A DNA stretch of 64,000 nt from Flavobacterium sp. (GTDB lineage Bacteria > Bacteroidota > Bacteroidia > Flavobacteriales > Flavobacteriaceae). Positions 1,869-24,463 of the stretch are shown here, piece by piece. The notes under the pieces were generated by a model, which was not told the DNA's origin, searched no databases, and was given only the letters and a program-made list of their open reading frames with translations. The stretch covers positions 5,995 through 69,994 of the forward strand of contig NZ_JBJXEN010000010.1 in NCBI RefSeq assembly GCF_046153165.1, given 5' to 3'. The position numbers were made by a program, and so were the translations under genes. Each line of letters starts with the position of its first letter. The stretch's first letter is position 1.

Positions 1869-3776
1869 CTACAACTTTCCGTTCTTTATCTCATCGACAA
1901 TTTCGGGATTTAATAAAGTGGTGATATCTCCAAAATTACTAAAATCTCCTTCAGCAATTTTTCTCAAAATTCGTCTCATAATTTTTCCAGAGCGTGTTTT
2001 AGGTAAACCAGAAACAAACTGAATTTTATCTAATTTAGCAATTGGTCCGATATGATCTGAAACATGTTGATTTATTTCTTTAGCCAAATTATTCTTGTCA
2101 CGGGTTTCTCCACTTTCTTTTAGAATTACAAAACCGTACAAAGCATTACCTTTTATATCATGAGGAAATCCAACAATGGCAGATTCTGCAACAGCGGGAT
2201 GCTCATTTATGGCATCTTCTATGGGAGCTGTTCCTAAATTATGACCAGAAACAATTACGACATCATCTACTCGACCTGTAATTCTATAGTAACCTACTTC
2301 GTCACGCAAAGCACCATCTCCAGTAAAATATTTACCTGGAAAAGCAGAAAAATACGTTTCTTTATAACGTTGATGATCTCCCCAAATTGTTCTTGCAATT
2401 CCTGGCCATGGAAACTTGATGCACAAACTTCCTGTCACTTGATTTCCTTCAATTTCGTTACGCTTTTCATTCATTAATACTGGTTGAATTCCAGGCAATG
2501 GTAATGAGGCATACGTTGGTTTTGTTGGTGTTACAAAAGCTATTGGTGAAATCATGATACCTCCAGTTTCTGTTTGCCACCACGTATCTACAACGGGACA
2601 ACGCTTACCTCCTACGTGGTCATTGTACCAGTGCCAAGCTTCCTCATTGATAGGTTCTCCAACAGAGCCAATTACTTTCAAGGATTGTAATGGGAATTTT
2701 TGAACGTATGATAAATTCTCTTTTGCCAAAGCTCGAATGGCTGTTGGAGCGGTATAAAATTGCGTCACTTTGTGTTTTTCAATCACTTCCCAAAAACGAG
2801 AGAAATCTGGGTAAGATGGAACTCCTTCAAAAATTACAGTCGTAGCTCCATTTAAAAGCGGACCGTAAAGAATATAAGAATGTCCTGTTATCCAACCAAT
2901 ATCGGCTGTACACCAAAAAACATCATTTTCTTCATAATTAAAAACATTTTTGAAAGTATAAGCAGAATATACCATATAACCAGCCGTAGTATGTACCATT
3001 CCTTTTGGTTTCCCTGTTGATCCTGAAGTATATAAAATAAATAAAGGATCTTCAGCATCCATGATTTCAGCTACATTATTGTCTGATGCTTGGTCTAAAA
3101 GAGGTTGTAACCATTGGTCTCGGCCTTCCTTCATATTAATTTGAGTATTCGTTCTTTTGGCTACCAATACTTTTTCAACACAAGGACATTTTTCTAAAGC
3201 TTCATCTATAATTCCTTTTAAATCGATAGTTTTTTCGCCACGGAAACCACCATCAGAAGTGATGACCATTTTACATTCAGAATCATTAATTCTTGACGCT
3301 ACTGCTGAAGAAGAAAACCCAGCAAACACTACTGAATGGATGGCGCCAATTCTAGCACAAGCCAATGTTGCAATGGCTAATTCGGGAATCATTGGTAAAT
3401 AAATACAAACTCTATCTCCTTTTTCGATGCCTTGTTCTCTCAATACATTTGCCATTTTAGAAACACGTACATATAATTCGTTGTACGAGATGTGTTGTGC
3501 TTCTTCATTTGGATTATTTGGTTCAAAAATAATAGCTGTTTTTTCACCTCGACGTACTAAATGCCTATCGATACAATTTTTTACAATGTTAACTTTTGCT
3601 CCTTTAAACCATTCTATTTTGGCTTCGGCCATATCAAATTCTACTACTTTTTCGCATTCTTGATACCAAGTAAAATTCTCGGAAGCAATTTTTCCCCAAA
3701 ATTTTCTCGGTTCTCTAATTGATTTGTTATAATGTTTAAAGTATTGTTCTAAATTGTCAATTTTGTAATAACTCAT
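1869..3776 (-). CDS. acs: Acetate--CoA ligase
   Basis: YTSGSTGKPKG, DTWWQTETGG, GRVDDV and PKTRSGKIMRR (acetylation Lys) motifs; 635 aa. Confidence 0.95.
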   Translation of the reverse strand: MSYYKIDNLEQYFKHYNKSIREPRKFWGKIASENFTWYQECEKVVEFDMAEAKIEWFKGAKVNIVKNCIDRHLVRRGEKTAIIFEPNNPNEEAQHISYNELYVRVSKMANVLREQGIEKGDRVCIYLPMIPELAIATLACARIGAIHSVVFAGFSSSAVASRINDSECKMVITSDGGFRGEKTIDLKGIIDEALEKCPCVEKVLVAKRTNTQINMKEGRDQWLQPLLDQASDNNVAEIMDAEDPLFILYTSGSTGKPKGMVHTTAGYMVYSAYTFKNVFNYEENDVFWCTADIGWITGHSYILYGPLLNGATTVIFEGVPSYPDFSRFWEVIEKHKVTQFYTAPTAIRALAKENLSYVQKFPLQSLKVIGSVGEPINEEAWHWYNDHVGGKRCPVVDTWWQTETGGIMISPIAFVTPTKPTYASLPLPGIQPVLMNEKRNEIEGNQVTGSLCIKFPWPGIARTIWGDHQRYKETYFSAFPGKYFTGDGALRDEVGYYRITGRVDDVVIVSGHNLGTAPIEDAINEHPAVAESAIVGFPHDIKGNALYGFVILKESGETRDKNNLAKEINQHVSDHIGPIAKLDKIQFVSGLPKTRSGKIMRRILRKIAEGDFSNFGDITTLLNPEIVDEIKNGKL

Positions 3777-3794
3777 AACTATTCTTATTATTTA

Positions 3795-5702
3795 TTAATT
3801 CTTATTTTTATTATAAACACCTATTTCATATTTTTTTAAAACATCGATAATTTCTTCAACAATTACTTCATCATCGATGGTTGACGGAATTTGGAAATTT
3901 TCACCATCTGCTATACTTCGAATTAATTTTCGAAGAATTTTTCCTGAACGAGTTTTAGGCAATCTTTGTACTATGACAACATTTCGTAAGGAAGCAACGG
4001 CGCCTATTTGTTGTCTTACCAGTTTTACAATCTCTTGTTCTAATTGAAAATGCTCGATAGATTCACCTGATTTATTAACTACTAATGCTAATGGAACTTG
4101 TCCTTTTAAGTCATCATTAATTCCTATTACTGCACATTCAGCAACCGAATGATGAGAAGATACTATTTCTTCCATCTCGGCAGTAGATAAACGATGTCCT
4201 GCTACATTAATAACATCATCAACTCTACCTGTAATAAATATATAATCCTCATCGTCTTTAAAACCTCCATCACCAGAAAAATAATAACCAGGAAATTTAT
4301 TCAAATAACCCATTTTAAAACGCTCGGTATCACCCCATAAATCAAGCATTGTTCCAGGAGGCAATGGCAATTTTATAACAACATATCCTTCTTGATTTGG
4401 ACCCAATTCTTGCCCATTTTCTCCAAATATTCGAATATCATAACCTGCAACTGCTTTTCCAGCCGAACCTGGTTTTACAGGTAAAACTTCTACTCCCATC
4501 ATATTAGCAATCATAGGCCAGCCTGATTCGGTTTGCCACCAATGGTCTATTGCCGGAACAGGAATATGTTCGTTGTACCATTCTAAAGTAGCTACATCAC
4601 AACGCTCTCCTGCTAAAAACTGAGTACGAAGACATGATAAATCATATTGTTTGATAAAGGCACCATTTGGATCTTCTTTTTTGATAGCTCTAATTGCTGT
4701 TGGAGCTGTAAACATTACTTTTACTTTATGTTCTGCAATGATTCGCCAAAAAGTAGATGCATCTGGTGTTTTAATTGGTTTTCCTTCGAAAATAATGGTA
4801 GCATTTCTGTTGATTAATGGACCATAAATAATAAAACTATGACCTACAACCCAGCCTACATCGGATGCAGCCCAAAAAACCTCATCTGGTTTCGCCCCAT
4901 AAATATATTGCATTGAAAATTTAAGTGCTGTAGCATATCCGCCTGTATCTCTTACTATACCTTTAGGTTTTCCAGTTGTTCCAGAAGTGTATAAAACATA
5001 TAATGGATGAGTTGCATTTACGGGAACACATGGTATCTCTTCAGAACCATAAACCAGTGCATCATAATCTACATCATATTTTTTGAAAGGAACTCTAGCG
5101 CCTAATTTTCTATTGAAAACGATAACTTTTTTTGGTTTATGTGACGACAATTCAATAGCTTCATCAACTAGTGGTTTATAGGCTATTAATCTATCTACTT
5201 CTATTCCTGATGAAGCAGTAATAATACCTCTTGGTTTACAATCATCTATTCTAATAGCTAATTCGTGTGGTGCAAAACCACCAAAAACTACCGAATGTGT
5301 CACTCCAATTCTAGCACAAGCCAACATAGCAAATGCCGCCTGAGGAATCATTGGCATATATATTACCGCTGTATCTCCTTTTTTGAATCCTAGTGAAATC
5401 ATTCCTCCTGCCAATTTTGCTACTTCAGTTTTTACATCATTAAAGGTATATTTCTTTATAGTTTGTGTTACTGGCGAATCATAAATTAGGGCAATATTAT
5501 CTCCATATCCATCTTGAATATGTTTATCTAAAGTTAGATAGCAAATATTTAATTCTCCATCTTTAAACCAAAGAGGATAATCATTTTCATCTTTTAATAA
5601 AATTCTTGATGGTTTACTATACCATTCGATTTGATTCGCTTGATCTTCCCAAAAAGCTGAAGGAAAATCGATACTCTTTTTATATAATTCTGAATAATTC
5701 AT
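3795..5702 (-). CDS. prpE: Propionate/acetate--CoA ligase (PrpE/ACSS3-like)
   Basis: YTSGTTGKPKG, FLAGERCD, DHWWQTESGWP and PKTRSGKILR motifs; GFAPHELA type; exact substrate uncertain. Confidence 0.75.
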   Translation of the reverse strand: MNYSELYKKSIDFPSAFWEDQANQIEWYSKPSRILLKDENDYPLWFKDGELNICYLTLDKHIQDGYGDNIALIYDSPVTQTIKKYTFNDVKTEVAKLAGGMISLGFKKGDTAVIYMPMIPQAAFAMLACARIGVTHSVVFGGFAPHELAIRIDDCKPRGIITASSGIEVDRLIAYKPLVDEAIELSSHKPKKVIVFNRKLGARVPFKKYDVDYDALVYGSEEIPCVPVNATHPLYVLYTSGTTGKPKGIVRDTGGYATALKFSMQYIYGAKPDEVFWAASDVGWVVGHSFIIYGPLINRNATIIFEGKPIKTPDASTFWRIIAEHKVKVMFTAPTAIRAIKKEDPNGAFIKQYDLSCLRTQFLAGERCDVATLEWYNEHIPVPAIDHWWQTESGWPMIANMMGVEVLPVKPGSAGKAVAGYDIRIFGENGQELGPNQEGYVVIKLPLPPGTMLDLWGDTERFKMGYLNKFPGYYFSGDGGFKDDEDYIFITGRVDDVINVAGHRLSTAEMEEIVSSHHSVAECAVIGINDDLKGQVPLALVVNKSGESIEHFQLEQEIVKLVRQQIGAVASLRNVVIVQRLPKTRSGKILRKLIRSIADGENFQIPSTIDDEVIVEEIIDVLKKYEIGVYNKNKN

Positions 5703-5730
5703 TGTTATTGTGATGTTTATATTTATTGAA

Positions 5731-6096
5731 TCAGTTTTCTAAAAGCTCACTTACTTGATCTACAATTTTCTTTATAGAAAAAGGTTTTGTCATATAAGCA
5801 TCGGCACCAAGAGATAATCCTTTTTCTATATCACTTTCTTTATTTTTTGCCGAAAGAAAAATGACTTTGGTATGTTTCAGATTATCCTCTTTTTTTATTT
5901 GTTCTAAGGTAGCATAACCATCAACCATGGGCATCATAATATCCAAAATAATAACATCTGGATAATTTGTTTTTAGAATATCTAATGCTTCTTGTCCGTC
6001 GCGGGCAATAAATACTTGATAATTATTTTTTTTGAATGTATATTCAAGAGCCATTACAATATTTGGTTCGTCATCTACGATTAAAATCTTCTTCAT
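5731..6096 (-). CDS. Single-domain response regulator (REC only)
   Basis: VDDE, LDIMMP phospho-Asp and KPF; 121 aa with no output domain; overlaps kinase stop by 4 nt. Confidence 0.9.
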   Translation of the reverse strand: MKKILIVDDEPNIVMALEYTFKKNNYQVFIARDGQEALDILKTNYPDVIILDIMMPMVDGYATLEQIKKEDNLKHTKVIFLSAKNKESDIEKGLSLGADAYMTKPFSIKKIVDQVSELLEN

Positions 6097-8798
6097 TGGG
6101 TGTTTATTTCAATATTCTTATTTTTAGGTAATGTAAAAGCGATGGAAGCTCCTTTTAGACTAGTTTGCGCCCAAATTTTTCCTTTGTGATGTTCAATAAT
6201 CTGTTTGCAAATAGCTAATCCTAGTCCGCTGCCTACTGGTTTTTTTATATTTTGATTGGTTGATTGGTAAAATTTATCGAAAATTACTTCAAAATCATTT
6301 GTATTTATTCCTTTGCCGTTATCTTGTACTACTGTTTGAATAAAATCTTCTTTCTCAGAAACTTGAATGGTAATTAATCCTTCTTTTTCAGGACAAAATT
6401 TTATAGCATTAGAAACCAAATTCGTAATTACCTGAAAAATTCTATCTTCATCATAATAAGCATTAATTTTATGCTTACTTTCTATATGAATCGTAATATT
6501 CTTATTCTTAATTAACTGTTGTAAAGGATCAATCGCTTTTTCGATAGTATTTACCAAATTATTTTTTGATGGATTAATAGTTTGTTTTCCTGTTTCAAAT
6601 TTCTCTAAATCAAGAATTTTATCAATTAATCTGTTTAATCTATCTGATTCTGAAATAATATTTTGAAGAAATTGCTTTCTCAAATCTTCAGGGATTTCAT
6701 CATCGTCATGCAAAATTTCACTTGCTGCTCTTATTGCTGTTATTGGAGTTCGCAATTCATGCGTTACAGTATCTAGAAATTCGTCTTTTTGCTGGTCTTT
6801 TTTAATTAAAGAACTATTTGCTGTTTGTAATTTGGCTGAAATTTCTTTTAATTCTTTAGAAGTTTCGGTTAGTTTTTTATTGATAATAATATTCTCTTTC
6901 GATTCTTCCAGGATTTTTAAAACTTCTGGCAAACTAATTTTTTCTTCTTTTACCACACTAGAAATCAATATTCTGGCAGATGCCGTTCCGATATGACCTG
7001 TGAGTAAATTCTCGGAAAATTTAATTAATCGAGCATCAGCCAATTCTTGATTTTTATCTACATTATATTTGACATTGAAGATATTCATGGCTCGTTTGGT
7101 TCGTTCTTCTCCCAGAAAACGAATTAGTACTTTTTCAATATCATTTCGGTAGGCAGTTCCTTTCCAAATAAACGCATTTTCATGATTGGTAATATATTTA
7201 TTGATATCAACAAACATTTCGGCATAATTGCGTTCCCGATAATTTCCTTTGAAACTTACTGAAACTGCAAAATAAGTGAACGAATTAAACAATAAACTCC
7301 AAAATAAGGCATGTGGAACAGGTTGCAAATAATCTAACCCAAATAATTGAAAAGGTTTTAATAATTCGATTCCCATAAATCCTTTAGAAATAAAAGATAT
7401 TTCTACGTTACTTATTCCAATAGCATAAGGAATTAACAATGTATAAATACAGATTAAAAACCCAACAATAATGCTATAAATGGCACCCAATCTTGAACCT
7501 CTTCTCCAGAATAAAGCTCCAAAAAAAGCAGGTGATAATTGGGCTATAATAACAAAAGCTACTAAACCTATAGAAACCAAACTATAATCTAATGCAAAAA
7601 AACGATAGATAAAATAAGCTAGAATAATAAGTATAAAAATTCCGAATTTTCGACTGTTTACGATTTTACGGCTACTAATAGTTTGCTCATCACTTTTTAA
7701 TTTTCCTAATAAGTTATAAGGAATTAAAACGTTGTTAGTTAGCATCGTAGAAAGACCAATAGAAGAAACGACAATCATGGATATTGCTGCTGAAAATCCG
7801 CCAAGAAAAACAATAACAGTCATTGCTTTATTGTTGAAAAGCTGTGGAATTAACAAGGAATAAGTATCCGAATTTACCTCTTTTCCGTCAAATAAAATAT
7901 TACCTCCCCAGGCGATTGGATATACAAAAAGATTGAAGATTAGTAAGTACAATGGAAATAACCAAACCGCTGTATTGATATGATTTTCTCGATTATTTTC
8001 GATAACAGAAACCTGAAATTGCCTAGGTAATAAGAAAATCGCAAACATAGATAATATACATAACAAAAACCAGTTGATGGCTTGTGGTAAACCACCAATT
8101 GCATTTTTTTCTTTAAAATTTTCTAATAAAGAAGCTTTTTGATAAATATCATCAAAACCATCAAAAACGAAATAAGTAACATAAATTCCAATAATGACGA
8201 AGAAAACAAGTTTCAAAACGCTTTCCATGGCAACAGCAGTCACTATTCCTTTTCTTTTTTCGGAAGCATCTACGTAACGAGTTCCATAATATGAAGCAAA
8301 TAATGCTAATGCTACTGCGACATAAGTTGTTGTATCGTCTAAAATAAACGAATTGGTAGCCGTTTTAGTAACTACGTGAAAAGTTTCAGAAATCGATTTG
8401 AGCTGTAAGGCAATGTAAGGCAAAATTCCTGTAAGACAAATAACAGTAACAATAGCTCCTAAAAATCGACTGTTTCCGTAGCGAAGAGAAATAAAATCGG
8501 CAATACTTGAAATTTTATTTACTCTTGAGATTCGTATAATTTTTTTTAGAATTAAAATCCAAGAAGGTGCAATAATTATGGGACCCAAATAAATGGGTAA
8601 ATAACCTAATCCGCTTTTAGCAGCCACACCTACACTCCCGTAATAAGTCCAAGCCGTGCAATAAACCGCCAATGACAATGTATATACATAAGGATTGTTT
8701 GTCCATTTGCTATTCCCTTTTTTCTCTGCCCAATGTGCAATGAAAAAAAGAACTGCTAAATAGACAGACAATATCATTAGAAGTATTATACTACTCAT
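6093..8798 (-). CDS. Sodium:solute symporter (SLC5)-STAC-histidine kinase, CrbS/CbrA-like
   Basis: About 500 aa polytopic SSS domain (LAVYCTAWTYYGSVG), STAC-like RFLGEER...GTASARIL, HisKA THELRTP, HATPase NLVSNAIKF/DNGKG/GSGLGL. Confidence 0.88.
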   Translation of the reverse strand: MSSIILLMILSVYLAVLFFIAHWAEKKGNSKWTNNPYVYTLSLAVYCTAWTYYGSVGVAAKSGLGYLPIYLGPIIIAPSWILILKKIIRISRVNKISSIADFISLRYGNSRFLGAIVTVICLTGILPYIALQLKSISETFHVVTKTATNSFILDDTTTYVAVALALFASYYGTRYVDASEKRKGIVTAVAMESVLKLVFFVIIGIYVTYFVFDGFDDIYQKASLLENFKEKNAIGGLPQAINWFLLCILSMFAIFLLPRQFQVSVIENNRENHINTAVWLFPLYLLIFNLFVYPIAWGGNILFDGKEVNSDTYSLLIPQLFNNKAMTVIVFLGGFSAAISMIVVSSIGLSTMLTNNVLIPYNLLGKLKSDEQTISSRKIVNSRKFGIFILIILAYFIYRFFALDYSLVSIGLVAFVIIAQLSPAFFGALFWRRGSRLGAIYSIIVGFLICIYTLLIPYAIGISNVEISFISKGFMGIELLKPFQLFGLDYLQPVPHALFWSLLFNSFTYFAVSVSFKGNYRERNYAEMFVDINKYITNHENAFIWKGTAYRNDIEKVLIRFLGEERTKRAMNIFNVKYNVDKNQELADARLIKFSENLLTGHIGTASARILISSVVKEEKISLPEVLKILEESKENIIINKKLTETSKELKEISAKLQTANSSLIKKDQQKDEFLDTVTHELRTPITAIRAASEILHDDDEIPEDLRKQFLQNIISESDRLNRLIDKILDLEKFETGKQTINPSKNNLVNTIEKAIDPLQQLIKNKNITIHIESKHKINAYYDEDRIFQVITNLVSNAIKFCPEKEGLITIQVSEKEDFIQTVVQDNGKGINTNDFEVIFDKFYQSTNQNIKKPVGSGLGLAICKQIIEHHKGKIWAQTSLKGASIAFTLPKNKNIEINTQ

Positions 8799-8985
8799 TG
8801 TATCGTTTTACAATTAATAAGGAAACTAAAATGGAAAGCAGCCAAATAGAAAAAAAGTAAATATAAATGGCAGGAAATCCCAATACATTTGTAGAAGAAT
8901 CAAATAGCAAAACTATAGGAAGATTAAGCCCTATGAGTAAAACTATAGATACAATTACTAATTTTTGTTGGTGTCTTTTTTTCAT
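8791..8985 (-). CDS. Small 2-TM protein overlapping the kinase start (CbrX/DUF3311-like position)
   Basis: 64 aa, two hydrophobic stretches around LGFPAIY; 8-nt overlap with kinase ATG. Confidence 0.7.
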   Translation of the reverse strand: MKKRHQQKLVIVSIVLLIGLNLPIVLLFDSSTNVLGFPAIYIYFFSIWLLSILVSLLIVKRYNE

Positions 8986-8993
8986 ATTTAATT

Positions 8994-9030
8994 AAAAAAC
9001 CTAAAGCCCTTGAAAATTCAAGAGCTTTAG
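8994..9030 (-). terminator. Intra-operon intrinsic terminator/attenuator
   Basis: Hairpin ctaaagc-cttgaa / ttcaag-gctttag followed on the minus strand by G-T6. Confidence 0.6.
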
Positions 9031-9048
9031 ATTTAATACAATTATTAA

Positions 9049-9264
9049 TTAATCTTCATATTCGTTTGTTAATGAGTACCATCCAAAAATAGTCAAACCT
9101 GTAACAATTAAAGGTAATAAAATAAAAAATATAATTATTCCAAAAACCAAGTCATCTTGTTTTCCTGAGGTCAACTTTCCTCCAAATATTCCGATACTAT
9201 AGTAAGCAATCACGATAGATAAAGCAATCCAAACTATTCCTAAATATTTTTTTATTGTGTTCAT
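9049..9264 (-). CDS. Small 2-TM membrane protein (DUF6814-like)
   Basis: 71 aa, two TM helices, C-terminal FGWYSLTNEY; family name from recall. Confidence 0.65.
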   Translation of the reverse strand: MNTIKKYLGIVWIALSIVIAYYSIGIFGGKLTSGKQDDLVFGIIIFFILLPLIVTGLTIFGWYSLTNEYED

Positions 9265-9276
9265 AATTTTTATGTT

Positions 9277-10815
9277 TTAGTCGTGAAGTGTATTAATTTT
9301 TTTATCAATGTAAATCATTCCAATTATGAAACAAACTGCTGCAATTCCTATTGGATACCATAATCCTTCTAAATAAAATTCTGGGTTTCCAGCATCTTTA
9401 GCCGAAGTTACGAAATAAGTAGATATCGCAGGAAGTAATCCTCCAAAAATACCGTTTCCAACGTGATATGGTAATGACATTGATGTATATCTAATTTTTA
9501 CAGGGAACATTTCGACAAGGAAAGCTGCAATTGGACCATAGACCATCGTTACAAAAATTACTTGAATAAAGACTAGAAAAATAAGCATCCATCGATCACT
9601 GCTATTAATAGTTTTAGTCACTTTAGTATCTACTTTGTCTTTTCCTTTATCATCTACTAATACTTTTCCGTTTTCTATGTGAATGGTTTTTATCTCTTCT
9701 ACGGTAGTTCCATCTACATATGCTTTTGTAGTAGTATAAATAGAATCTAATTTAGTAGCATCAATTTCTTTGATAGATGGAACCACTTTAGTTTGTTCTA
9801 CAATTTCAGTTTTTAAAGCTAAATCTGTAGTTTGATACATGGCTTTGTATATTGGTCTGTATAGCAAAATTGCTAATAACATTCCTCCCATCATAATGTA
9901 TTTTCTACCTATTTTATCACTCAACCAACCAAACACGATAAAGAATGGTGTTCCAAAAATTAAAGCTATTCCTAATGACATATCTACTTGAGATGAATCG
10001 ACACCCATTACGGTTTTCATAAAGTTCATCGCATAAAATTGCCCTGTATACCACACAACTCCTTGTCCCATTGTGGCACCAAACAATGCAAGCAAAACAA
10101 ATTTTAAATTGTATTTGTTTCCAAAACTTTCTTTTAGAGGATTTGTAGATGTTTTTCCTTCTGATTTTGCTTTTGCAAATACAGGAGATTCATCCATATT
10201 TTTACGAATCATATACGATACAAATACCATGATGATTGAAACCCAAAACGGTACTCTCCATCCCCATTCGTCAAAAGCTTCTTTAGATAAAACGCTTTTT
10301 GTTATAAGAATTACCATCAATGAAATAAACAAACCAACTGTTGCTGTAGTTTGAATCCATGAAGTCCAATAACCTTTTTGACCAGCTGGTGCATGTTCTG
10401 CTACATAAGTTGCAGCTCCACCATATTCGCCACCAAGCGCTAAACCTTGTAACAAACGCAATACTAAAACTAATAATGGAGCAAAAAAACCAATGCTTTC
10501 ATAACTCGGAATACAACCTATTAGGAAAGTGGCTCCACCCATTAATAATAATGTAACCATAAATGTATATTTTCTTCCTATCAAATCGCCTAAACGACCG
10601 AAGAATAATGCTCCAAAAGGGCGAACTACAAAACCTGCTGCAAATGTTGCTAATGTAGATAAGAAGGCAGCTGTAGGATTATCTGAAGGGAAAAATTTAG
10701 TAGAAATTACCACTGCTAAACTTCCAAAGATGTAGAAGTCATACCATTCTATCATTGTTCCCATTGAGGAGGCTGAAATTACTTTCCAGATTCCTTTTGT
10801 TGATTTTTCTTTCAT
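9277..10815 (-). CDS. MFS transporter, metabolite:H+ symporter (MHS) family
   Basis: GTMIEWYDF, RPFGALFFGRLGDLIGRK and QGLALGGEYGGA motifs. Confidence 0.9.
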   Translation of the reverse strand: MKEKSTKGIWKVISASSMGTMIEWYDFYIFGSLAVVISTKFFPSDNPTAAFLSTLATFAAGFVVRPFGALFFGRLGDLIGRKYTFMVTLLLMGGATFLIGCIPSYESIGFFAPLLVLVLRLLQGLALGGEYGGAATYVAEHAPAGQKGYWTSWIQTTATVGLFISLMVILITKSVLSKEAFDEWGWRVPFWVSIIMVFVSYMIRKNMDESPVFAKAKSEGKTSTNPLKESFGNKYNLKFVLLALFGATMGQGVVWYTGQFYAMNFMKTVMGVDSSQVDMSLGIALIFGTPFFIVFGWLSDKIGRKYIMMGGMLLAILLYRPIYKAMYQTTDLALKTEIVEQTKVVPSIKEIDATKLDSIYTTTKAYVDGTTVEEIKTIHIENGKVLVDDKGKDKVDTKVTKTINSSDRWMLIFLVFIQVIFVTMVYGPIAAFLVEMFPVKIRYTSMSLPYHVGNGIFGGLLPAISTYFVTSAKDAGNPEFYLEGLWYPIGIAAVCFIIGMIYIDKKINTLHD

Positions 10816-10842
10816 ATAGTATACTTTTTAAATTTATTTTTA

Positions 10843-12150
10843 TTAAAATGAATAAGCGCAAGAAACCATTACTCTAACATTAGATACATCTCTAGAGTTT
10901 AAATCGGCTGATCCGTTTCCATTAGCATTTAAATCACCCCAAGTCGCTGCTGTATATTCAACTTCTGGAGTTACTCTGAATTTATTTTGTTTAAAATCTA
11001 CTCTTCCTGCAACTCTCATTACCTGATCAACAACTCTAGTTCCAGAAACACCTCTCATATAATATTTTACTGTTTCACCTGGATTTAAAGAACGACCTGT
11101 TCCATCATTAGTTGTCATACCAAAAAACAAACCTGGAGCAATTTTTTTACCATTACTCGCTACATCTAGCCAAAAAGCAGTTGCTTTTGATGCTTCGTAT
11201 TTTTCAACTTCATTTACTGCAGTATAACCAGCAAAACCTCCTAACATGACTTGATTTTGCATGTTCAAACCTGAAATTCCGTAAGCTTTAACAGAAAATT
11301 TATCATTAGAATACTTAACATATCCCACAACAGACGAACTATTTACTTTTTCAGTCGTTAAAACTTTTGTCCCTGATGGAGCTAAAGTAAAATCGGTTAA
11401 GGGTTGGATAGATTTAAATTCCGCTCCCATACCTGCAATCCAGTTTTTATTTTTATATTGAAATTGTCCGTGTAAAGTAGGCATCACAGAATTAATTGTA
11501 CCTGAGTTCTGGGTTCCAATTGTTGCTGTTGTTGCAGCAAACTCTCTCTCTTTATATACTGTTAAAGCAAAAGATAATTCTTTAGTGAAGTTTTGTTTTA
11601 ATTTTATTTGAGTTGCCCAACCAAATGGGTTGAACATAATTCCTGTGTTAAAATTTGCTACACCTGGAAAAACCTCTGGAATAAATGTTGGATACCAAGT
11701 TTGCCCGACTGTCAATGAAGTTTTTGACCAATCCATGTTAACATAAGCATGTCTTAATCTAAAAAGCCCAATTGAAGAACCTTCTACATTTCCGAAGAAA
11801 TCGCCTTCTAATGTCCCGCTCATTTTTGCACCCCATACATTTGGTCCTTTTACTTTAGTTCCAAGTCTTGAGATTACTGATAAATAGTTTGATGAAGGAA
11901 CATCATTAAAATCATCGCCAGAAACTGGAGAATCTAATGGATAAAGATTTAATTCACCCTCTCTTACTTGTGCAGATTTTCTAGTATCATAAAAGAAGTC
12001 AGTTCTAATAAAACCATAAAGGCTAACATCCCATTCTTTTTCTACAGGTACAGGAGTAGGAACAATAGGAATTGTTTCTGTGGCTGGTGTTTGTGAAAAT
12101 CCTTTTATGGAAGCCATTCCTAATAAAAGAATTAAATAATGTTTTTTCAT
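10843..12150 (-). CDS. Outer-membrane beta-barrel porin, DcaP-like
   Basis: Signal peptide, YGFIRTD, SRLG, EGDFFG, FRLRHAY and GQTW motifs; C-terminal aromatic YSF. Confidence 0.75.
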   Translation of the reverse strand: MKKHYLILLLGMASIKGFSQTPATETIPIVPTPVPVEKEWDVSLYGFIRTDFFYDTRKSAQVREGELNLYPLDSPVSGDDFNDVPSSNYLSVISRLGTKVKGPNVWGAKMSGTLEGDFFGNVEGSSIGLFRLRHAYVNMDWSKTSLTVGQTWYPTFIPEVFPGVANFNTGIMFNPFGWATQIKLKQNFTKELSFALTVYKEREFAATTATIGTQNSGTINSVMPTLHGQFQYKNKNWIAGMGAEFKSIQPLTDFTLAPSGTKVLTTEKVNSSSVVGYVKYSNDKFSVKAYGISGLNMQNQVMLGGFAGYTAVNEVEKYEASKATAFWLDVASNGKKIAPGLFFGMTTNDGTGRSLNPGETVKYYMRGVSGTRVVDQVMRVAGRVDFKQNKFRVTPEVEYTAATWGDLNANGNGSADLNSRDVSNVRVMVSCAYSF

Positions 12151-12254
12151 AATAGATACAATTTGGTTATTAGTTGGTTGGTTTTAACACTGCCAAATTG
12201 TAACTTTTTATCAAGAAAAAAAATAATGATATATATATATGTAAACTAATATAG

Positions 12255-12674
12255 CTAATCTTTAAAACGTTCCCATTTTATAAGCATAAATTTATCCCCA
12301 AGTTCGGTTATAACCATACCTGCTCCAGATAATAAATTTTTATTTTTAACATATTCTACAAGCTCTAAATGATTAAATATCTTATAAGTAGGATGGTAAT
12401 CGCCATGAGATGGCTTCTTTATTTTATATTCTTTTACCCAATTACTTACTGTAACATGAGAAACCCCAATAATACGTTCAATTTCTCGATAACTAAGCCC
12501 TTCTAGGTAGAGCTGCATAGCTTTGATAACATAATAATTATCTATCTTTTTACCTAGTTTATTGACTGTAAAATAATAATTACATTTTTTACATAAATAC
12601 CTTTGTTTATTATTGATCACACCACTTTTTACAATAGTATTATTTTGACATTTTGGGCAAGCTAAAATCTCCAT
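12255..12674 (-). CDS. IS1 InsA-like zinc-ribbon + HTH DNA-binding protein, no transposase catalytic domain
   Basis: CPKC-x19-CKKC ribbon with KSG..KQRYLC, HTH GLSYREIERIIGVSHVTVSNWV, unrelated ~55-aa C-terminus. Confidence 0.75.
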   Translation of the reverse strand: MEILACPKCQNNTIVKSGVINNKQRYLCKKCNYYFTVNKLGKKIDNYYVIKAMQLYLEGLSYREIERIIGVSHVTVSNWVKEYKIKKPSHGDYHPTYKIFNHLELVEYVKNKNLLSGAGMVITELGDKFMLIKWERFKD

Positions 12675-12933
12675 ATATATAAATTTTGCATAAATATATT
12701 AAATTAGCAATTATAATAAAACATTTTTATTGTTTTTGTTCATTAAAAATTATGTAGTAGTCAATTTTACTAGTAAAAAATTACATTTATAATAATTTTA
12801 TTAAAATTTAGCTTTCTAAATCATTTACAGGTTATTAAGATGCTTTTTTGTTAAAAGTTAATAATTTTTAATAACTGATTTATATATATCCTTATTATTT
12901 CGTTTAATTTGTAGTATAACAATATCGCTTTAT

Positions 12934-13539
12934 ATGGAATTTGATCCAGAAAATCTTGAACAATCAGCTATTTATAAATTACTTACAGGAGCTGTCATTC
13001 CACGGCCTATTGGTTGGATATCTAGTGTAAGTGAGGATGGAATAAACAACCTTGCTCCTTTTTCTTTTTTTAATGCGATTGGAGACGATCCTCCTCATGT
13101 CATGTTTTCAACAGTCAGAGGAAATAATACGAATAAGGATACCTTAAATAACGTATTATCTACTAAGCAGTTTGTAGTTAATATGGTTACAGAAGAGTTA
13201 GTTGAACAAATGAATATGACCTCACAATCAATTCCATCTGATGAAAGTGAATTTGAACTAGCTGGTCTTACTCCTATTGCTTCCGTAAAAGTAAAACCAA
13301 TGCGTGTTAAAGAAAGTCCTATTACTTTCGAATGTGAATTAGTTCACCACTACTCATTAGAAAATCACAAATTTGGCGGAGCTACGATGATTGTTGGTAA
13401 AATAATAATGATGCACATTGATGAAAGTGTCTTACTAGATAATTACAAAATAAATATGAATACTTACAAACCTGTAGCTCGTTTAGCAGGTTCAAATTAT
13501 AGCAAAATAGGGGAAATATTTTCAATAAAAAGAAGTTAG
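12934..13539 (+). CDS. Flavin reductase-like FMN-binding split-barrel protein (COG1853/DIM6-NTAB type)
   Basis: VIPRPIGWISS, NLAPFSFFN and KDTLNN motifs. Confidence 0.85.
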   Translation: MEFDPENLEQSAIYKLLTGAVIPRPIGWISSVSEDGINNLAPFSFFNAIGDDPPHVMFSTVRGNNTNKDTLNNVLSTKQFVVNMVTEELVEQMNMTSQSIPSDESEFELAGLTPIASVKVKPMRVKESPITFECELVHHYSLENHKFGGATMIVGKIIMMHIDESVLLDNYKINMNTYKPVARLAGSNYSKIGEIFSIKRS

Positions 13540-13646
13540 CATTTAAAAAAAACATAAAAGAAGGAACACCAATTAGAGAAATCTGACAAATTTCAAAAAT
13601 TATTCTAATTCTTTAATCGGTGATAAAAAAAACATAAACAATAAAA

Positions 13647-13697
13647 AACCGTGTGAATCTGCGTCTTCGCTTTTGCGAATCCGTTTTATCCGCGTTC
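13647..13697. repeat. Intergenic GC-richer element with AATC(C/T)G units and a ttcgc-tttt-gcgaa hairpin
   Basis: Visible in sequence; related AATCTG units recur at 19295-19323. Confidence 0.45.
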
Positions 13698-13707
13698 AAT
13701 TAAAAAT

Positions 13708-15993: not shown

Positions 15994-16008
15994 AAGTAAT
16001 TAGAAATT

Positions 16009-17598
16009 ATGAAACATTACGAAGATAATTTCGCTCACAATAGTTTACCAAGTTTGGACTTACAACCAGAATATAAATTCTTGGGTTTACCACAATTCAA
16101 TCGTCCAGAAATGCTTAATTGTGTGGAAAAATTACTCGACAATCATATAGCTGAAGGTCGTGGAAACAACATTTGCATCAGAACTTTCGAGGAAACTTGG
16201 ACATATCAGGATTTATACGAAAAAGCCAATCAAATAGCACATGTTTTAGTCGAAGATTTAGGTTTAAAATCAGGAAATCGTGTATTGATTCGTTCGGCTA
16301 ATAATCCAATGATGGTCGCTTGCTGGTTTGCAGTGTTAAAAGCTGGCGGAATTGTTGTCGCAACTATGCCTTTGTTACGTTCCAAAGAATTAACTACAAT
16401 TATAGATTGCGCCGAAATTTCTCATGCTTTTTGCGATAGCAATTTATCTGATGAAATGAACTTAGTAAAGTCTAGTTTTCTAAAAAAGGTTTGTTATTAT
16501 AAAAATTCCGATTTAGAGAAGTTGATGGAAACTAAACCAAAAACATTTCATAATTTTCATACCAAAGCAGATTCAGTTGCCCTAATTGGTTTCACTTCAG
16601 GGACTACAGGTCTGCCTAAAATGACAGCACATTATCACAAAGATATTCTTAATATTTGTGAAGCTTTCCCACAATATTCATTACAACCAACTGAAATCGA
16701 TGTTTTTACAGGAAGTCCACCTCTAGGTTTTACGTTCGGATTAGGCGGATTGGTTTTATTTCCCATGTATTTTGGCGCTTCCACATTTTTAATCGAAAAA
16801 CCAAGTCCAGATTTACTTTTAAAAGTCATTGAAGAATACAAAATAACGATTTGTTTTACAGCTCCAACAGCTTGGAGAATTATCACTACAAAAGTGAATA
16901 AATTTAATGTTTCCAGCTTACGCAAATGTATATCTGCTGGAGAAACATTACCCTTAAAAGTTTGGCAAGATTGGTATAATGCTACAGGATTAAAAATCAT
17001 AGACGGAATCGGTGCTACCGAAATGCTACATATTTTTATTTCATCTAACGAAGAAAATATGAAACCAGGATCAACTGGTATAGCAATTACTGGTTATGAA
17101 GCTAAAATTATTGATATAAATGGTGATGAAGTTTCAAGAAATGAACCAGGAAGATTAGCCGTTCGTGGAATTACTGGTTGTAAATACTTAAACCGAGAAG
17201 ACAAACAACGAGAATATGTAGAAAACGGTTGGAACATCACTGGAGATATTTTCCGTCAAGATGAAGAAGGTTATTTTTATTTTGTGGCTCGCGGTGACGA
17301 TATGATTATTTCTTCGGGGTATAATATTGCTGCAATTGAAGTAGAAAGTGTACTTTTAACCCACGAAGATATTCTAGAATGTGCAGTAGTAGGATTACCA
17401 GATGAAGAACGAGGAATGCTAGTTTGTGCACACATTGTTTTAAAAGAAAATGACAAAGCAAACGATGAATTAACTAAAACTATTCAACAATGGTTCAAAG
17501 AAGTAGCTGCTCCATATAAATATCCAAGAGTAATTAATTTTGTAGAAGAATTGCCAAAAACTGAAACTGGAAAAATACAACGATTTAAATTAAAATAA
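16009..17598 (+). CDS. Aromatic acid--CoA ligase, 2-aminobenzoate-CoA ligase (AbmG)-type
   Basis: FTSGTTGLPK, SPPLGFTFGLG, DGIGATEMLHIFIS and LPKTETGKIQRF motifs. Confidence 0.85.
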   Translation: MKHYEDNFAHNSLPSLDLQPEYKFLGLPQFNRPEMLNCVEKLLDNHIAEGRGNNICIRTFEETWTYQDLYEKANQIAHVLVEDLGLKSGNRVLIRSANNPMMVACWFAVLKAGGIVVATMPLLRSKELTTIIDCAEISHAFCDSNLSDEMNLVKSSFLKKVCYYKNSDLEKLMETKPKTFHNFHTKADSVALIGFTSGTTGLPKMTAHYHKDILNICEAFPQYSLQPTEIDVFTGSPPLGFTFGLGGLVLFPMYFGASTFLIEKPSPDLLLKVIEEYKITICFTAPTAWRIITTKVNKFNVSSLRKCISAGETLPLKVWQDWYNATGLKIIDGIGATEMLHIFISSNEENMKPGSTGIAITGYEAKIIDINGDEVSRNEPGRLAVRGITGCKYLNREDKQREYVENGWNITGDIFRQDEEGYFYFVARGDDMIISSGYNIAAIEVESVLLTHEDILECAVVGLPDEERGMLVCAHIVLKENDKANDELTKTIQQWFKEVAAPYKYPRVINFVEELPKTETGKIQRFKLK

Positions 17599-17604
17599 AC
17601 AATA

Positions 17605-19185: not shown

Positions 19186-19264
19186 AAGCTATTTCCAGCT
19201 TTACACTGCAATCTTTTTATTTTTAAAGAAAAAATAAAAAGGATTTCCGTTTCAATCTGGGCTA
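19186..19264 (+). repeat. 79-bp REP/MITE-like palindromic repeat, copy A
   Basis: 65/79 identical without gaps (manual count) to the reverse complement of 47859-47937; central hairpin. Confidence 0.8.
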
Positions 19265-19337
19265 AAATTTTAGTAAAGAACAATGATTAAATAAAATCTG
19301 TGCTAATCAGTCTAATCTGTGGCAAAAAATAAAGAAT

Positions 19338-20397: not shown

Positions 20398-20404
20398 ATC
20401 GACA

Positions 20405-21385: not shown

Positions 21386-21397
21386 CATTAAAATACT

Positions 21398-22516: not shown

Positions 22517-22519
22517 AAA

Positions 22520-23041: not shown

Positions 23042-23243
23042 GCATTGCAAATAAAAATCGTTTACTGTAAGTTAAAGTCTAAATTTGATGTTGGCTTTGT
23101 GTTTGGAAAATCACTTATAAATCGATAGTTTTGGATAATTAATCCTCACCTTCAGTAACTGACGGGATATTCAATAATAATTTCAACAATCAATATTAAA
23201 AACCTTAGAACCTTAGTTCCTTTGCAACTTAGAACCTTAAAAC

Positions 23244-24152: not shown

Positions 24153-24154
24153 AA

Positions 24155-24448: not shown

Positions 24449-24463
24449 CACATTATTTTTAAA

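What the first reader, a model, noticed from the sequence alone, without database searches (positions are those of the whole stretch)
12255..12674. Probable domesticated IS1 InsA-type protein acting as a transcription factor
Seen: InsA-like C4 zinc ribbon plus HTH, but no InsB/DDE frame, no A6C frameshift motif after the HTH and no terminal inverted repeats recognised. A novel ~55-aa C-terminus (GAGMVITELGDKFMLIKWERFKD) follows. It sits at the head of the short-chain-acid operon and is divergent from the aromatic cluster, and neither locus encodes another DNA-binding protein. Inference: a transposase-derived regulator of acetate/propionate (and perhaps aromatic) catabolism; the C-terminal domain could be a ligand- or REC-binding module.
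Basis: partly seen in the sequence, partly recalled or inferred. Interest (0 to 1): 0.68.

Follow-up and report, generated by a model that had tools for sequence, protein, structure and literature searches.

The report
Domesticated mini-IS1 regulator with operators
A small zinc-finger DNA-binding protein left over from an IS1-family jumping gene, still flanked by remnants of that element's end sequences, sits in one fixed place at the head of the acetate uptake and activation operon throughout Flavobacterium and related genera, so it is most likely that operon's transcription factor.

Summary
The 139-aa ORF at 12255-12674 (-) is real: a C4 zinc ribbon, an HTH and a C-terminal mini-domain. It is the upstream-frame (orfA, InsA-type) product of a Bacteroidota IS1-family element. 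It aligns without gaps with orfA of a Tenacibaculum IS1 copy, through the old slippery site and into the unshifted tail.

Two of its points fail:
- The C-terminus is not wholly novel.
- Inverted repeats are present. The left end survives (17/17 nt identical to the Tenacibaculum IRL), duplicated into two tandem sites over the gene's own promoter region. A degenerate right-end copy abuts the stop codon.

The gene is found once in each genome recovered, always 139 aa, and under strong purifying selection, strongest in the tail. In 70 of 71 Flavobacterium species, and in orthologs down to 50-66% identity, it heads the same operon: porin, carboxylate transporter, SLC5-type histidine kinase, receiver-only response regulator, acs. 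The one exception, F. psychrophilum, lost the operon and also the ATG.

Best reading: an exapted mini-IS1, regulator plus its own binding sites, controlling the operon's only promoter region. DNA binding, the direction of regulation and coupling to the two-component system are inferred, not shown.

The parts
12255..12674 (-). ZnHTH gene: 139-aa domesticated IS1-family orfA (InsA-type) protein
   Evidence: ORF. NCBIfam transpos_IS1 scores 77 bits over residues 6-114 against profile 1-112/199, below the 100-bit cut-off. BLASTP to Tenacibaculum IS1 orfA gives 34% identity, ungapped, E 2e-24. 139 aa in all 87 loci read.
12582..12659 (-). C4 zinc ribbon (residues 6-31, CPKC...CKKC)
   Evidence: Invariant C6, C9, C28, C31. 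NF050000 IS1_IS1595_Zn passes its cut-off. Predicted as three strands, 14-38.
12423..12539 (-). Three-helix HTH DNA-binding domain (residues 46-84)
   Evidence: Pfam HTH_23 and HTH_28. Helices 46-57, 62-69 and 73-83 in the AF2 model.
12336..12347 (-). Vestigial frameshift site: AAAAATAAAAAT (K110-N-K-N), homologous to the A7C 'HKKT' slippery site of the IS
   Evidence: Alignments, IS sequence and coordinates. The -1 frame hits a stop 12 codons later.
12258..12329 (-). C-terminal tail SGAGMVITELGDKFMLIKWERFKD. It derives from the unshifted orfA tail and is predicted as a beta-hairpin that completes a small beta-alpha-beta-beta domain with residues 96-115.
   Evidence: Most conserved segment in orthologs of 46-91% identity. 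pN 0.026. Strands 119-125 and 128-134.
12695..12711 (-). Operator site 1, the remnant of the left terminal inverted repeat (ATTGCTAATTTAATATA). Its TTG is a candidate -33 element of the gene's own promoter.
   Evidence: 17/17 identical to Tenacibaculum IS1 IRL positions 4-20. Conserved in 80 of 80 Flavobacterium loci and in 6 of 6 distant orthologs.
12676..12692 (-). Operator site 2: a tandem direct copy 19 nt downstream of site 1 (TATGCAAAATTTATATA). It overlaps a candidate -7 box (AAAATTTA) and the start of the mRNA.
   Evidence: Scores above the 99th percentile of the intergenic null in 100% of Flavobacterium loci. Present at +19 nt in all 6 distant orthologs.
12240..12254 (-). Site 3: IRR-like inverted copy directly after the stop codon (CTATATTAGTTTACA; reverse complement TGTAAACTAATATAG)
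   Evidence: Conserved block. Distant orthologs keep the exact TTAGCAA (reverse complement of TTGCTAA) here. The gapped IR pattern occurs in 87 of 89 loci against 0.7% of random intergenic windows.
12193..12223 (-). Core promoter of the operon: a conserved T-run (12216-12223) and a -7-like box TACAATTTGG (12193-12202)
   Evidence: Conserved in all loci. In F. psychrophilum the downstream transcript contig starts 12 nt after this box. The stretch forms no stable hairpin, so it is not an intrinsic terminator.
1869..12150 (-). Putative target operon: DcaP-like porin (10843-12150), MFS carboxylate/H+ symporter (9277-10815), DUF6814 (9049-9264), 64-aa membrane protein (8791-8985), SLC5-type sensor kinase (6093-8798), receiver-only response regulator (5731-6096), prpE/acs-like ligase (3795-5702), acetate-CoA ligase (1869-3776)
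   Evidence: Pfam and NCBIfam assignments. Internal gaps are at most 63 nt. Same order in 70 of 71 species. The kinase is 43% identical to an ortholog that carries a Pfam SSF hit.

Best explanation
The gene is what remains of an IS1-family insertion sequence that landed upstream of an acetate/short-chain-carboxylate operon in an ancestor of Flavobacteriales. It lost its catalytic frame (orfB, DDE) and its frameshift signal, but kept orfA and its own end sequences: IRL - orfA - IRR.

orfA of IS1 is InsA, a zinc-finger/HTH protein that binds the element's inverted repeats and represses the promoter inside IRL. I propose the domesticated protein still does exactly that.

1. It binds the two tandem IRL-derived 17-nt sites (19-nt period) that overlap its own promoter, and so autoregulates.
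2. It binds the IRR-derived site that now lies about 60 nt upstream of the start of the operon transcript. From there it controls the single promoter region that serves porin, transporter, SLC5-kinase, receiver-only regulator and the two acyl-CoA ligases.
3. The strongly conserved C-terminal mini-domain (residues 96-139) mediates oligomerisation on the repeats and/or receives the signal. The most likely signal is the phosphorylated receiver-only response regulator encoded in the same operon, which has no DNA-binding domain of its own.

Shown: the IS1 orfA ancestry, loss of orfB, IR remnants, a single fixed locus, purifying selection, conserved linkage, separate transcripts in one species.

Inferred: DNA binding to these sites, the sign of regulation (I favour autorepression at its own promoter and activation at the operon promoter), and the coupling to the two-component system. 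The coupling is the least certain step, about 0.35.
For: Ancestry:
- Ungapped 34% identity to Tenacibaculum IS1 orfA over residues 4-124, E 2e-24. The alignment runs through the slippery site into the 0-frame tail.
- The IS has an A7C site, a -1-frame orfB and 21-nt inverted repeats.
- Many 130-150-aa relatives show the same orfA read-through tail.

Inverted repeats:
- The 17/17 IRL match.
- Tandem site 2 in every locus.
- The IRR-like site abuts the stop codon, with exact TTAGCAA in distant orthologs.

Domestication:
- 80 hits in 80 different species assemblies.
- Always 139 aa.
- pN 0.084 against saturated pS, and 0.026 in the tail.
- Orthologs reach Fluviicola and marine Bacteroidota.

Linkage:
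- Kinase and receiver follow in 70 of 71 species loci, and acs in 69 of 71.
- The order is the same in orthologs of 50-66% identity even where the transporter cassette differs.
- The upstream neighbours vary.

Promoter:
- Operon gaps are at most 63 nt, so the 104-nt spacer is the only promoter region.
- F. psychrophilum RNA contigs show a separate ZnHTH transcript and a downstream transcript that starts 12 nt after the conserved -7-like box.
- There is no terminator hairpin.

The exception fits the rule: the only species that lost the operon has ATG changed to ATA in this gene.

Precedent: InsA binds IRL and IRR through its zinc finger and HTH and represses the IRL promoter (PMC12428005). SLC5-kinase systems control acs and actP in Proteobacteria (PMC5715377).

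The receiver protein is 121 aa with no output domain.
Against: - There is no direct evidence of DNA binding or of any effect on transcription.
- The IRR-like site is degenerate in Flavobacterium. An ungapped IRL matrix puts it above the 95% null in only 49% of loci. Its half-site spacing is 1-2 nt shorter than in IRL. It is absent in one distant ortholog, L094. The gapped pattern used was defined after seeing the data, and the loci are phylogenetically related.
- No further IRL-like site occurs elsewhere in the operon or the window, so any regulon is tiny.
- Conserved synteny could partly reflect the ends supplying promoter elements rather than the protein acting on them.
- F. psychrophilum still transcribes the gene and keeps 88% identity although the operon is gone.
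- The REC-ZnHTH interaction has no support beyond co-location and the missing output domain.
- The structure model is only moderately confident (pLDDT 79, pTM 0.50) and has no significant fold match.
Confidence: 0.6

Rival explanations
1. Same domesticated InsA-type regulator acting on the same IR-derived sites, but independent of the two-component system. Its C-terminal alpha/beta mini-domain would bind a small molecule (an acyl-CoA or a carboxylate) or serve only for oligomerisation. The receiver-only protein would act elsewhere, as a phosphorelay intermediate, a phosphate sink, or a partner of RNA polymerase or another factor.
For: The best, though non-significant, fold matches are Lrp/AsnC-type regulators, which combine an HTH with a small ligand-binding alpha/beta domain (E 0.009, TM 0.26). 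The tail is the most conserved part of the protein. CrbS-type kinases normally carry their own receiver domain (PMC5715377), so the separate receiver here could be a relay component rather than the final regulator. F. psychrophilum keeps the gene without a kinase or receiver nearby.
Against: The fold match is far below significance. The C-terminal domain has only about 45 residues and no recognisable pocket. The kinase/receiver pair then has no identified output, although it is always co-encoded with the gene.
Confidence: 0.22
2. The protein's selected function is still 'selfish-element control'. A resident InsA-type repressor would bind the ends of incoming related IS1-family elements and block their transposition. 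Its position next to the acs operon would be a frozen accident.
For: Over-produced InsA nearly abolishes IS1 transposition by competing for IRL and IRR (PMC12428005). Related IS1 elements with nearly the same end sequence exist in Flavobacteriaceae.
Against: This does not explain why the gene keeps the same neighbours from Flavobacterium to marine Bacteroidota at about 66% identity while the other flank varies. It does not explain why its own flanking sites and the adjacent promoter block are conserved. It does not explain why the start codon is lost exactly where the operon is lost. PADLOC gives no defence-system match beyond a marginal HTH-only hit (mad1, E 0.0026).
Confidence: 0.06
3. The main target is the divergently transcribed aromatic-acid cluster (flavin reductase, OYE-type oxidoreductase, aryl-CoA ligase, cupin dioxygenase, FAA hydrolase) rather than the acetate operon.
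For: That cluster contains no recognisable DNA-binding protein. It is the divergent neighbour in the window and in 18 of 75 Flavobacterium loci. F. psychrophilum keeps Glu_synthase-like and FAA-hydrolase genes upstream of ZnHTH.
Against: It is absent from this position in three quarters of Flavobacterium loci and in all the distant orthologs whose upstream genes could be read. Sites 1 and 2 sit within 40 nt of the ZnHTH start, 220 nt or more from the flavin reductase start. No IR-like site lies nearer that gene.
Confidence: 0.07
4. A decaying IS fragment with no protein function. The ORF would persist only because the element's ends supply promoter elements to the operon.
For: IS ends often create outward promoters. 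Annotation pipelines call the gene 'transposase'.
Against: The ORF is 139 aa and intact in 87 of 87 loci. Amino-acid identity is 83-91% across species whose synonymous sites are saturated. pN/pS is about 0.1, and 0.03 in the tail. Orthologs are recognisable at 46-74% identity with the zinc ligands invariant.
Confidence: 0.03

Closest known systems
InsA of IS1 (E. coli): the orfA product, repressor of the IRL promoter and competitor of the transposase at both ends
   Same: An N-terminal C4 zinc ribbon followed by an HTH. It is the product of the upstream frame without frameshifting. The gene lies directly behind an IRL that carries its promoter. The binding sites are the element's inverted repeats (PMC12428005).
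   Different: The window protein is 139 aa where InsA is 91 aa. In this Bacteroidota subgroup the slippery site lies after the strand that bears the first catalytic Asp, so orfA is longer. Here the slippery site and orfB are gone, the gene is single-copy and fixed in place, IRL is duplicated in tandem, and the neighbouring host operon is the presumed target.
Two-ORF IS1-family element on Tenacibaculum finnmarkense plasmids (CP116296.1 / CP116298.1)
   Same: orfA is 34% identical without gaps. The IRL core ATTGCTAATTTAATATA is identical. The order IRL, then orfA start, is the same.
   Different: The IS has an A7C slippery site, a -1-frame orfB encoding the DDE domain (219-aa fused transposase) and a well-matched IRR (90% over 21 nt). 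It has no second tandem site.
CrbS/CrbR (MxtR/ErdR) acetate two-component system of Vibrio and Pseudomonas
   Same: A sensor kinase with an SLC5-type transporter-like domain is genetically tied to acs and an acetate permease (PMC5436829, PMC5715377).
   Different: CrbR is described as the response regulator that activates acs transcription through a DNA motif it requires (PMC5715377). From general knowledge, not checked here, it carries a LuxR-type DNA-binding output domain. Here the response regulator is a bare 121-aa receiver, the kinase has no fused receiver domain, and the only DNA-binding protein in the locus is the transposon-derived ZnHTH.
Other exapted transposon proteins that became bacterial transcription regulators (for example the Cas12f-like proteins of Bacteroidetes, PMC12259090; from general knowledge also the TnpB-derived TldR repressors, not checked here)
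   Same: A mobile-element DNA-targeting module is reused for host gene control.
   Different: Those are RNA-guided nuclease derivatives. This one is a classical protein-DNA recognition module (zinc finger plus HTH) co-opted together with its own terminal repeats as cis sites. That pattern is familiar from eukaryotic transposase-derived factors, but I found no paper describing it for IS1.

Membership tests
IS1-family insertion sequence (active element) | Transposase with a C-terminal DDE catalytic domain, fused or reached by -1 frameshifting | tested here: not met
   No orfB. Only 104 nt lie between the stop codon and the next gene, and the alternative frames are closed. NCBIfam transpos_IS1 covers only profile positions 1-112 of 199 and scores 77 bits against a 100-bit cut-off.
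IS1-family insertion sequence (active element) | A6C/A7C slippery motif between orfA and orfB | tested here: not met
   The homologous site is AAAAATAAAAAT at 12336-12347. The IS comparator has CATAAAAAAAC.
IS1-family insertion sequence (active element) | Matching terminal inverted repeats at both ends | tested here: inconclusive
   The IRL core is kept (17/17 against a real IS) but the terminal GGC is not conserved. The IRR-like copy is degenerate, with altered spacing.
IS1-family insertion sequence (active element) | Multiple copies or variable genomic location | tested here: not met
   One copy in the window. 80 hits in 80 different assemblies. The downstream neighbours are the same in 70 of 71 species.
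InsA-type (orfA) protein of IS1 | C4 zinc ribbon plus HTH homologous to the N-terminus of IS1 transposases | tested here: met
   NF050000 passes its cut-off. There are transpos_IS1 N-terminal and Pfam Zn_ribbon_InsA/HTH_23 matches. Ungapped alignment to IS orfA.
InsA-type (orfA) protein of IS1 | Ends in the unshifted (0) frame shortly after the slippery site | tested here: met
   The alignment continues 12 residues past the K-K site in the 0 frame (G-x-G-[LM]-x-[LI]-[IT]-[DE]), not in the -1 frame.
InsA-type (orfA) protein of IS1 | Binds the element's inverted repeats and represses the IRL promoter | not testable with these tools
   Only circumstantial. The IRL-derived tandem sites overlap a candidate TTG-N17-AAAATTTA promoter and the start of the transcript.
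CrbS/CrbR-type acetate two-component system | Sensor kinase with an SLC5 (SSF) transporter-like domain linked to acs | tested here: met
   The window kinase has a ~550-residue multi-pass N-terminus with no Pfam hit of its own. It is 43% identical over its full length to an ortholog that has a PF00474 SSF hit. acs lies downstream. The STAC domain was not tested.
CrbS/CrbR-type acetate two-component system | Response regulator with its own DNA-binding output domain | tested here: not met
   121 aa with Response_reg covering residues 4-115 and nothing else. It aligns only to the receiver half of PhoB/OmpR-type regulators.
Lrp/AsnC regulators | HTH plus a beta-alpha-beta-beta-alpha-beta RAM domain, with significant fold or sequence similarity | tested here: not met
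   Best Foldseek E-value 0.0086 and TM 0.26. No sequence match.

The most novel reading that the evidence does not exclude
A complete miniature insertion sequence, the DNA-binding protein together with both of its terminal repeats, was exapted as a ready-made regulatory cassette. The repeats became the operators. The InsA-type protein became the missing DNA-binding output of an SLC5-kinase/receiver-only two-component system. The out-of-frame orfA tail, originally overlapping coding sequence of the transposase, evolved into the docking domain for the phosphorylated receiver. This would make acetate and short-chain-acid uptake and activation across Flavobacteriales depend on a transposon-derived 'split response regulator'.
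Probability: 0.3. Interest if true: 0.85.

Novelty: new variant of a known kind. Interest (0 to 1): 0.72.

Why it matters
Transposase-derived transcription factors that recruit their old terminal repeats as cis-regulatory sites are a textbook theme in eukaryotes. In my literature searches I found none described for IS1 in bacteria.

This case is unusually clean and old, spanning at least two families of Flavobacteriales. The donor element type still exists. The deletion of orfB, the dead slippery site, the retained ends and the host operon can all be read from the sequence.

It also offers a concrete candidate for how a receiver-only response regulator next to an SLC5-type kinase reaches DNA. 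And it would identify the regulator of acetate/propionate scavenging in an abundant group of freshwater, soil and marine heterotrophs.

On the practical side, hundreds of genomes annotate this gene as 'IS1 family transposase' or 'transposase', which is misleading.

Tried and rejected
- **Ungapped matrices for the right end.** IRL-derived matrices (24 nt and 17 nt) scanned over the region after the stop codon gave only weak support for an IRR in Flavobacterium. The case rests instead on distant orthologs and a gapped pattern.
- **A fourth site.** A full second tandem site downstream was not supported (2% above the 95% null). Only a TATA half-site recurs about 19 nt on.
- **More operator copies.** None was found in the window or the loci above chance.
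- **Intrinsic terminator.** The stop-to-T-run stretch folds at -2.9 kcal/mol, worse than its shuffles (z +1.45), so this reading was rejected.
- **My first guess at the IRR.** I first matched the reverse complement of the downstream block to the TATATTTATGCAAA part of the upstream block. That was mis-registered and was replaced after I saw the real IS ends.
- **More distant IS1 copies.** The Hymenobacter and Emticicia copies have unrelated ends, so they give no further support for the IR consensus.
- **RNA runs for the window organism.** None hold the sequence. Only assembled F. psychrophilum RNA contigs could be used. These have no strand information and only approximate ends.
- **Structure searches.** There is no solved relative and no significant fold match.
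- **Defence and phage libraries.** PADLOC and PHROGs returned only generic HTH or transposase matches.
- **Literature.** Four searches found no paper on this protein or on an IS1 InsA domestication.
- **Co-folding ZnHTH with the receiver.** Not attempted. The tool returns no interface metrics and only admits window or search-derived single sequences.
- **Reverse test** (kinase/receiver/acs loci that lack ZnHTH). Not run.
Full report

Window 12255-12674 (-) is an ATG-to-TAG ORF of 139 aa in a 31% G+C window. It occurs once in the window.

- Residues 6-31 carry CPKC...CKKC. The NCBIfam IS1/IS1595 zinc-binding domain model passes its cut-off.
- Pfam HTH_23 and HTH_28 match residues 50-85.
- The full NCBIfam IS1 transposase model matches only its first 112 of 199 positions, at 77 bits against a 100-bit cut-off.
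- The next gene starts 104 nt after the stop codon, and both alternative frames are riddled with stops. There is no DDE frame.

Two of its negative statements are not, as sections 2 and 3 show.

**2. What the protein is**

A search of 1.8 billion cluster representatives found 305 relatives at E<1e-10. Most are 130-150 aa. Aligning them with a 219-aa full-length IS1-family transposase was decisive.

- The transposase reads ...VVEIDELHTYIGEKKNYCWIWIAVDR...
- Many short relatives read ...VEMDEMHTYIGSKKTIVGYGLLLIDLE...
- The second string is the same DNA read straight through an A-rich Lys-Lys site without the -1 shift.

I verified this on real DNA, an IS1-family element on Tenacibaculum finnmarkense plasmids.

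- It has orfA (150 aa).
- Its slippery site is CAT AAA AAA ACT.
- Its -1-frame orfB begins KNYCWIWIAVDRYGK.
- Its terminal repeats are 21 nt: GGCATTGCTAATTTAATATAG and CTTTATTGAATTAGCAATGCC.

In this Bacteroidota subgroup the frameshift site lies after the strand that carries the first catalytic Asp. That is why orfA is about 140-150 aa, against 91 aa for E. coli InsA.

The window protein aligns with this orfA without a single gap, residues 4-124 against 1-121, at 34% identity and E 2e-24. The alignment passes through the old slippery site, now K-N-K-N (AAAAATAAAAAT, 12336-12347). It continues 12 residues into the unshifted tail.

So the 'novel C-terminus' is mostly inherited orfA sequence. 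Only the last ~15 residues (LGDKFMLIKWERFKD) are specific to the domesticated clade. The ancestral Asp position is His/Leu here.

**3. The inverted repeats are still there**

*Upstream.* The 40 nt before the ATG are almost invariant in 80 Flavobacterium species: TTGCTAAATTAGTATATTTATGCAAAATTTATATAT|ATG. The window's ATTGCTAATTTAATATA (12695-12711, minus strand) is identical at 17 of 17 positions to the Tenacibaculum IRL. Chance expectation is about 1e-6 for this composition.

A second copy of the motif lies exactly 19 nt downstream (TATGCAAAATTTATATA, 12676-12692). It scores above the 99th percentile of an intergenic null in every Flavobacterium locus. It is found at the same +19 offset in all six distant orthologs examined. 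In one of these the two 17-nt copies differ only at the first base.

*Downstream.* Directly after the stop codon comes another conserved block, CTATA-N3/4-TTTACAAA (12240-12254).

- In distant orthologs this block reads CTATATAGTTAGCAAAT or CTATATGTTTAGCAAAA. That is the exact reverse complement of TTGCTAA followed by TATAG.
- A gapped IR pattern occurs there in 87 of 89 loci, against 0.7% of random intergenic windows.

Caveats on the downstream site:

- The pattern was defined after seeing the data.
- The loci are phylogenetically related.
- The half-site spacing is 1-2 nt shorter than in IRL.
- An ungapped matrix gives only weak support in Flavobacterium.
- One distant ortholog (L094) lacks the site.

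I therefore regard IRL as established and IRR as probable. The unit is IRL(x2) - orfA - IRR, a miniature IS1 without orfB.

**4. It is domesticated, not mobile**

- **Copy number and size.** The 80 best genome hits lie in 80 different species assemblies, one per locus. All 87 loci read have 139 codons.
- **Conservation.** Protein identity is 83-91%.
- **Selection.** Over 600 random species pairs, synonymous sites are saturated (pS 0.80) and pN is 0.084. The lowest pN is in the tail, at 0.026.
- **Breadth.** Orthologs at 46-74% identity keep the zinc ligands and, nearly invariant, ITELGDKFMLIKWERF. They include a Fluviicola (Crocinitomicaceae) protein and Tara Oceans Bacteroidota.
- **Contrast with active relatives.** True IS1 transposase relatives matched 14,275 places in the (at least) 5,000 plasmid records counted.

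**5. Genomic context**

In the window the gene is followed on the same strand by eight genes:

1. a DcaP-like porin;
2. an MFS carboxylate/H+ symporter;
3. a DUF6814 protein;
4. a 64-aa membrane protein;
5. a 901-aa sensor kinase with a multi-pass N-terminal domain, 43% identical to an ortholog that has a Pfam SSF/SLC5 hit;
6. a 121-aa receiver-only response regulator;
7. a prpE/acs-like ligase;
8. a bona fide acetate-CoA ligase.

Gaps inside this string are at most 63 nt. The 104-nt spacer after ZnHTH is therefore the only plausible promoter region.

Conservation of this arrangement:

- Among species loci with at least 7.5 kb of downstream sequence, 70 of 71 have the kinase and the receiver in the same order, and 69 have acs.
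- The transporter cassette is interchangeable. It is MFS plus DUF6814 in most loci, and DUF4212 plus an SSF (ActP-like) permease in 17 Flavobacterium loci and in the marine orthologs.
- The porin type varies, and the upstream neighbours vary freely.
- All six distant orthologs show the same order as far as their contigs reach.
- The aromatic cluster that is divergent in the window occupies that position in only 18 of 75 loci.

The spacer carries, besides site 3, a conserved T-run and an AGAATTTGG-type box (TACAATTTGG in the window, 12193-12202). This box resembles the TTTG-containing -7 element of Bacteroidota promoters (general knowledge).

Expression evidence comes from one species. In F. 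psychrophilum, assembled RNA contigs show a separate ~470-nt ZnHTH transcript. It begins within a few nucleotides of the start codon. A distinct downstream transcript begins 12 nt after that box. Contig ends are approximate and carry no strand information.

That geometry puts site 3 at roughly -60 from the operon transcript start. The stretch does not form a terminator hairpin.

Upstream of the gene itself, TTG (in site 1) - N17 - AAAATTTA (in site 2) fits the -33/-7 spacing and a near-leaderless mRNA. The protein's presumed sites thus sit on its own promoter, as in IS1.

**6. The informative exception**

F. psychrophilum keeps ZnHTH, both flanking blocks and the promoter box. The operon, however, has been replaced by a T9SS-secreted M43 metallopeptidase gene. 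It is also the only one of 82 species loci whose start codon is ATA instead of ATG. Loss of the target and incipient decay of the regulator go together. This is a single event.

**7. Mechanism proposed**

Established background: IS1 InsA binds IRL and IRR through its zinc finger and HTH, represses the IRL promoter and competes with the transposase (PMC12428005).

By descent, the window protein most likely does two things:

- it binds sites 1 and 2 and autoregulates;
- it binds site 3 and from there controls the operon promoter.

I favour activation at the operon promoter, given the -60 position and the lack of a conserved -33 element there.

The predicted structure (pLDDT 79) has a zinc ribbon, a three-helix HTH and a small beta-alpha-alpha-beta-beta domain formed by residues 96-139. 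No significant structural neighbour was found.

That C-terminal domain is the best-conserved part of the protein. It is the natural candidate for oligomerisation on the tandem repeats and for signal input.

The operon encodes an SLC5-type kinase and a receiver with no output domain. In Proteobacteria the analogous CrbS/CrbR system drives acs and actP through a DNA-binding regulator (PMC5436829, PMC5715377). The most economical circuit is therefore kinase, then receiver~P, then ZnHTH, then promoter. This last link is inference only.

**8. Rivals**

- **Direct ligand sensing or simple oligomerisation, without the two-component system.** This cannot be excluded (0.22).
- **A transposition-immunity role.** It fails to explain the conserved linkage (0.06).
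- **Control of the aromatic cluster as the main target.** It fails for the same reason (0.07).
- **A functionless remnant.** It is contradicted by the selection data (0.03).

**9. Comparison and novelty**

The gene works like InsA and descends from an IS1 orfA. It is not a member of the set of active IS1 elements: it has no DDE domain, no slippery site, a single copy and a fixed locus.

It is linked to a CrbS-like sensor, but it is not a CrbR.

Database names for it are 'IS1 family transposase', 'transposase-like protein', 'helix-turn-helix domain-containing protein' and even 'terminase gpP N-terminus-related'. I found no paper describing it.

I rate it a new variant of a known kind: an InsA-type repressor exapted, together with its terminal repeats, as a host operon regulator.

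Noticed in passing
L011 9990-10010 and 10522-14178 (F. psychrophilum DSM 3660): This is the only species locus without the kinase/receiver/acs operon. The conserved promoter block now precedes a 1218-aa T9SS-sorted M43 metallopeptidase with PKD domains, and the ZnHTH start codon is ATA instead of ATG. The gene is still transcribed.
   Followed up: partly
L001 16253-17158 (F. branchiophilum GCA_006716585.1): An IS1595-family transposase gene is inserted in the sensor kinase gene and splits it into 772-aa and 116-aa pieces. The sister strain (L002) has the intact 903-aa kinase.
   Followed up: no
L007 13946-16632 and 19030-19854 (F. kingsejongi): The sensor kinase is called as two ORFs (389 and 493 aa), and a DDE_Tnp_1 insertion sequence sits between the two acyl-CoA ligase genes. 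The locus seems prone to IS hits.
   Followed up: no
window 8791-8985 (-): A 64-aa two-helix membrane ORF overlaps the kinase start by 8 nt. An ORF of 64-87 aa lies in the same position in Flavobacterium and in the marine orthologs. It matches no family and may be a partner of the SLC5-type sensor.
   Followed up: no
L013, L018, L019, L022, L028 and 12 more loci; L090, L093, L096, L097: The transporter cassette between the porin and the kinase is swapped: MFS plus DUF6814 in most loci, DUF4212 plus SSF (ActP-like) in 17 Flavobacterium loci and the marine orthologs. ZnHTH, kinase, receiver and acs stay put. In L047 the window-type porin gene is missing and the MFS transporter follows ZnHTH directly.
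   Followed up: partly
window 5731-6096 (-): The receiver-only regulator aligns best with the receiver halves of PhoB/OmpR-family regulators (Bacteroidota PhoB model positions 1-115 of 225). It looks like an OmpR-type regulator that lost its winged-helix domain.
   Followed up: no
window 12255-12674, residues 57-110: There is a weak NCBIfam match to Francisella FevR (E 8.8e-7, 29 bits, far below the cut-off) covering the HTH and the following ~25 residues. This could mean FevR/PigR-type small regulators also carry a transposase-type HTH.
   Followed up: no
L088 1201-1859 vs L089 1201-1860 (Tenacibaculum plasmids): The same IS1 copy sits in the same context on two plasmids. One needs the -1 frameshift (CDS of 659 nt). 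The other is a continuous 660-nt ORF, a natural frameshift-fixed variant.
   Followed up: partly
L046 (CALRRY020000023.1): This contig is labelled as a Variovorax paradoxus MAG, yet it carries an 86%-identical ZnHTH and the full Flavobacterium-type synteny. Bin contamination is likely.
   Followed up: no
window 12934-25213 (+): The divergent cluster encodes a flavin reductase, a 761-aa protein with an OYE-type (Oxidored_FMN) domain in residues 389-717, an aryl-CoA ligase, a Glu_synthase-like protein, a 4HBT thioesterase, a CN hydrolase, a bicupin dioxygenase, an FAA hydrolase and an Amdase-type isomerase. No regulator is recognisable. It looks like a CoA-dependent gentisate/salicylate-type pathway.
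   Followed up: no
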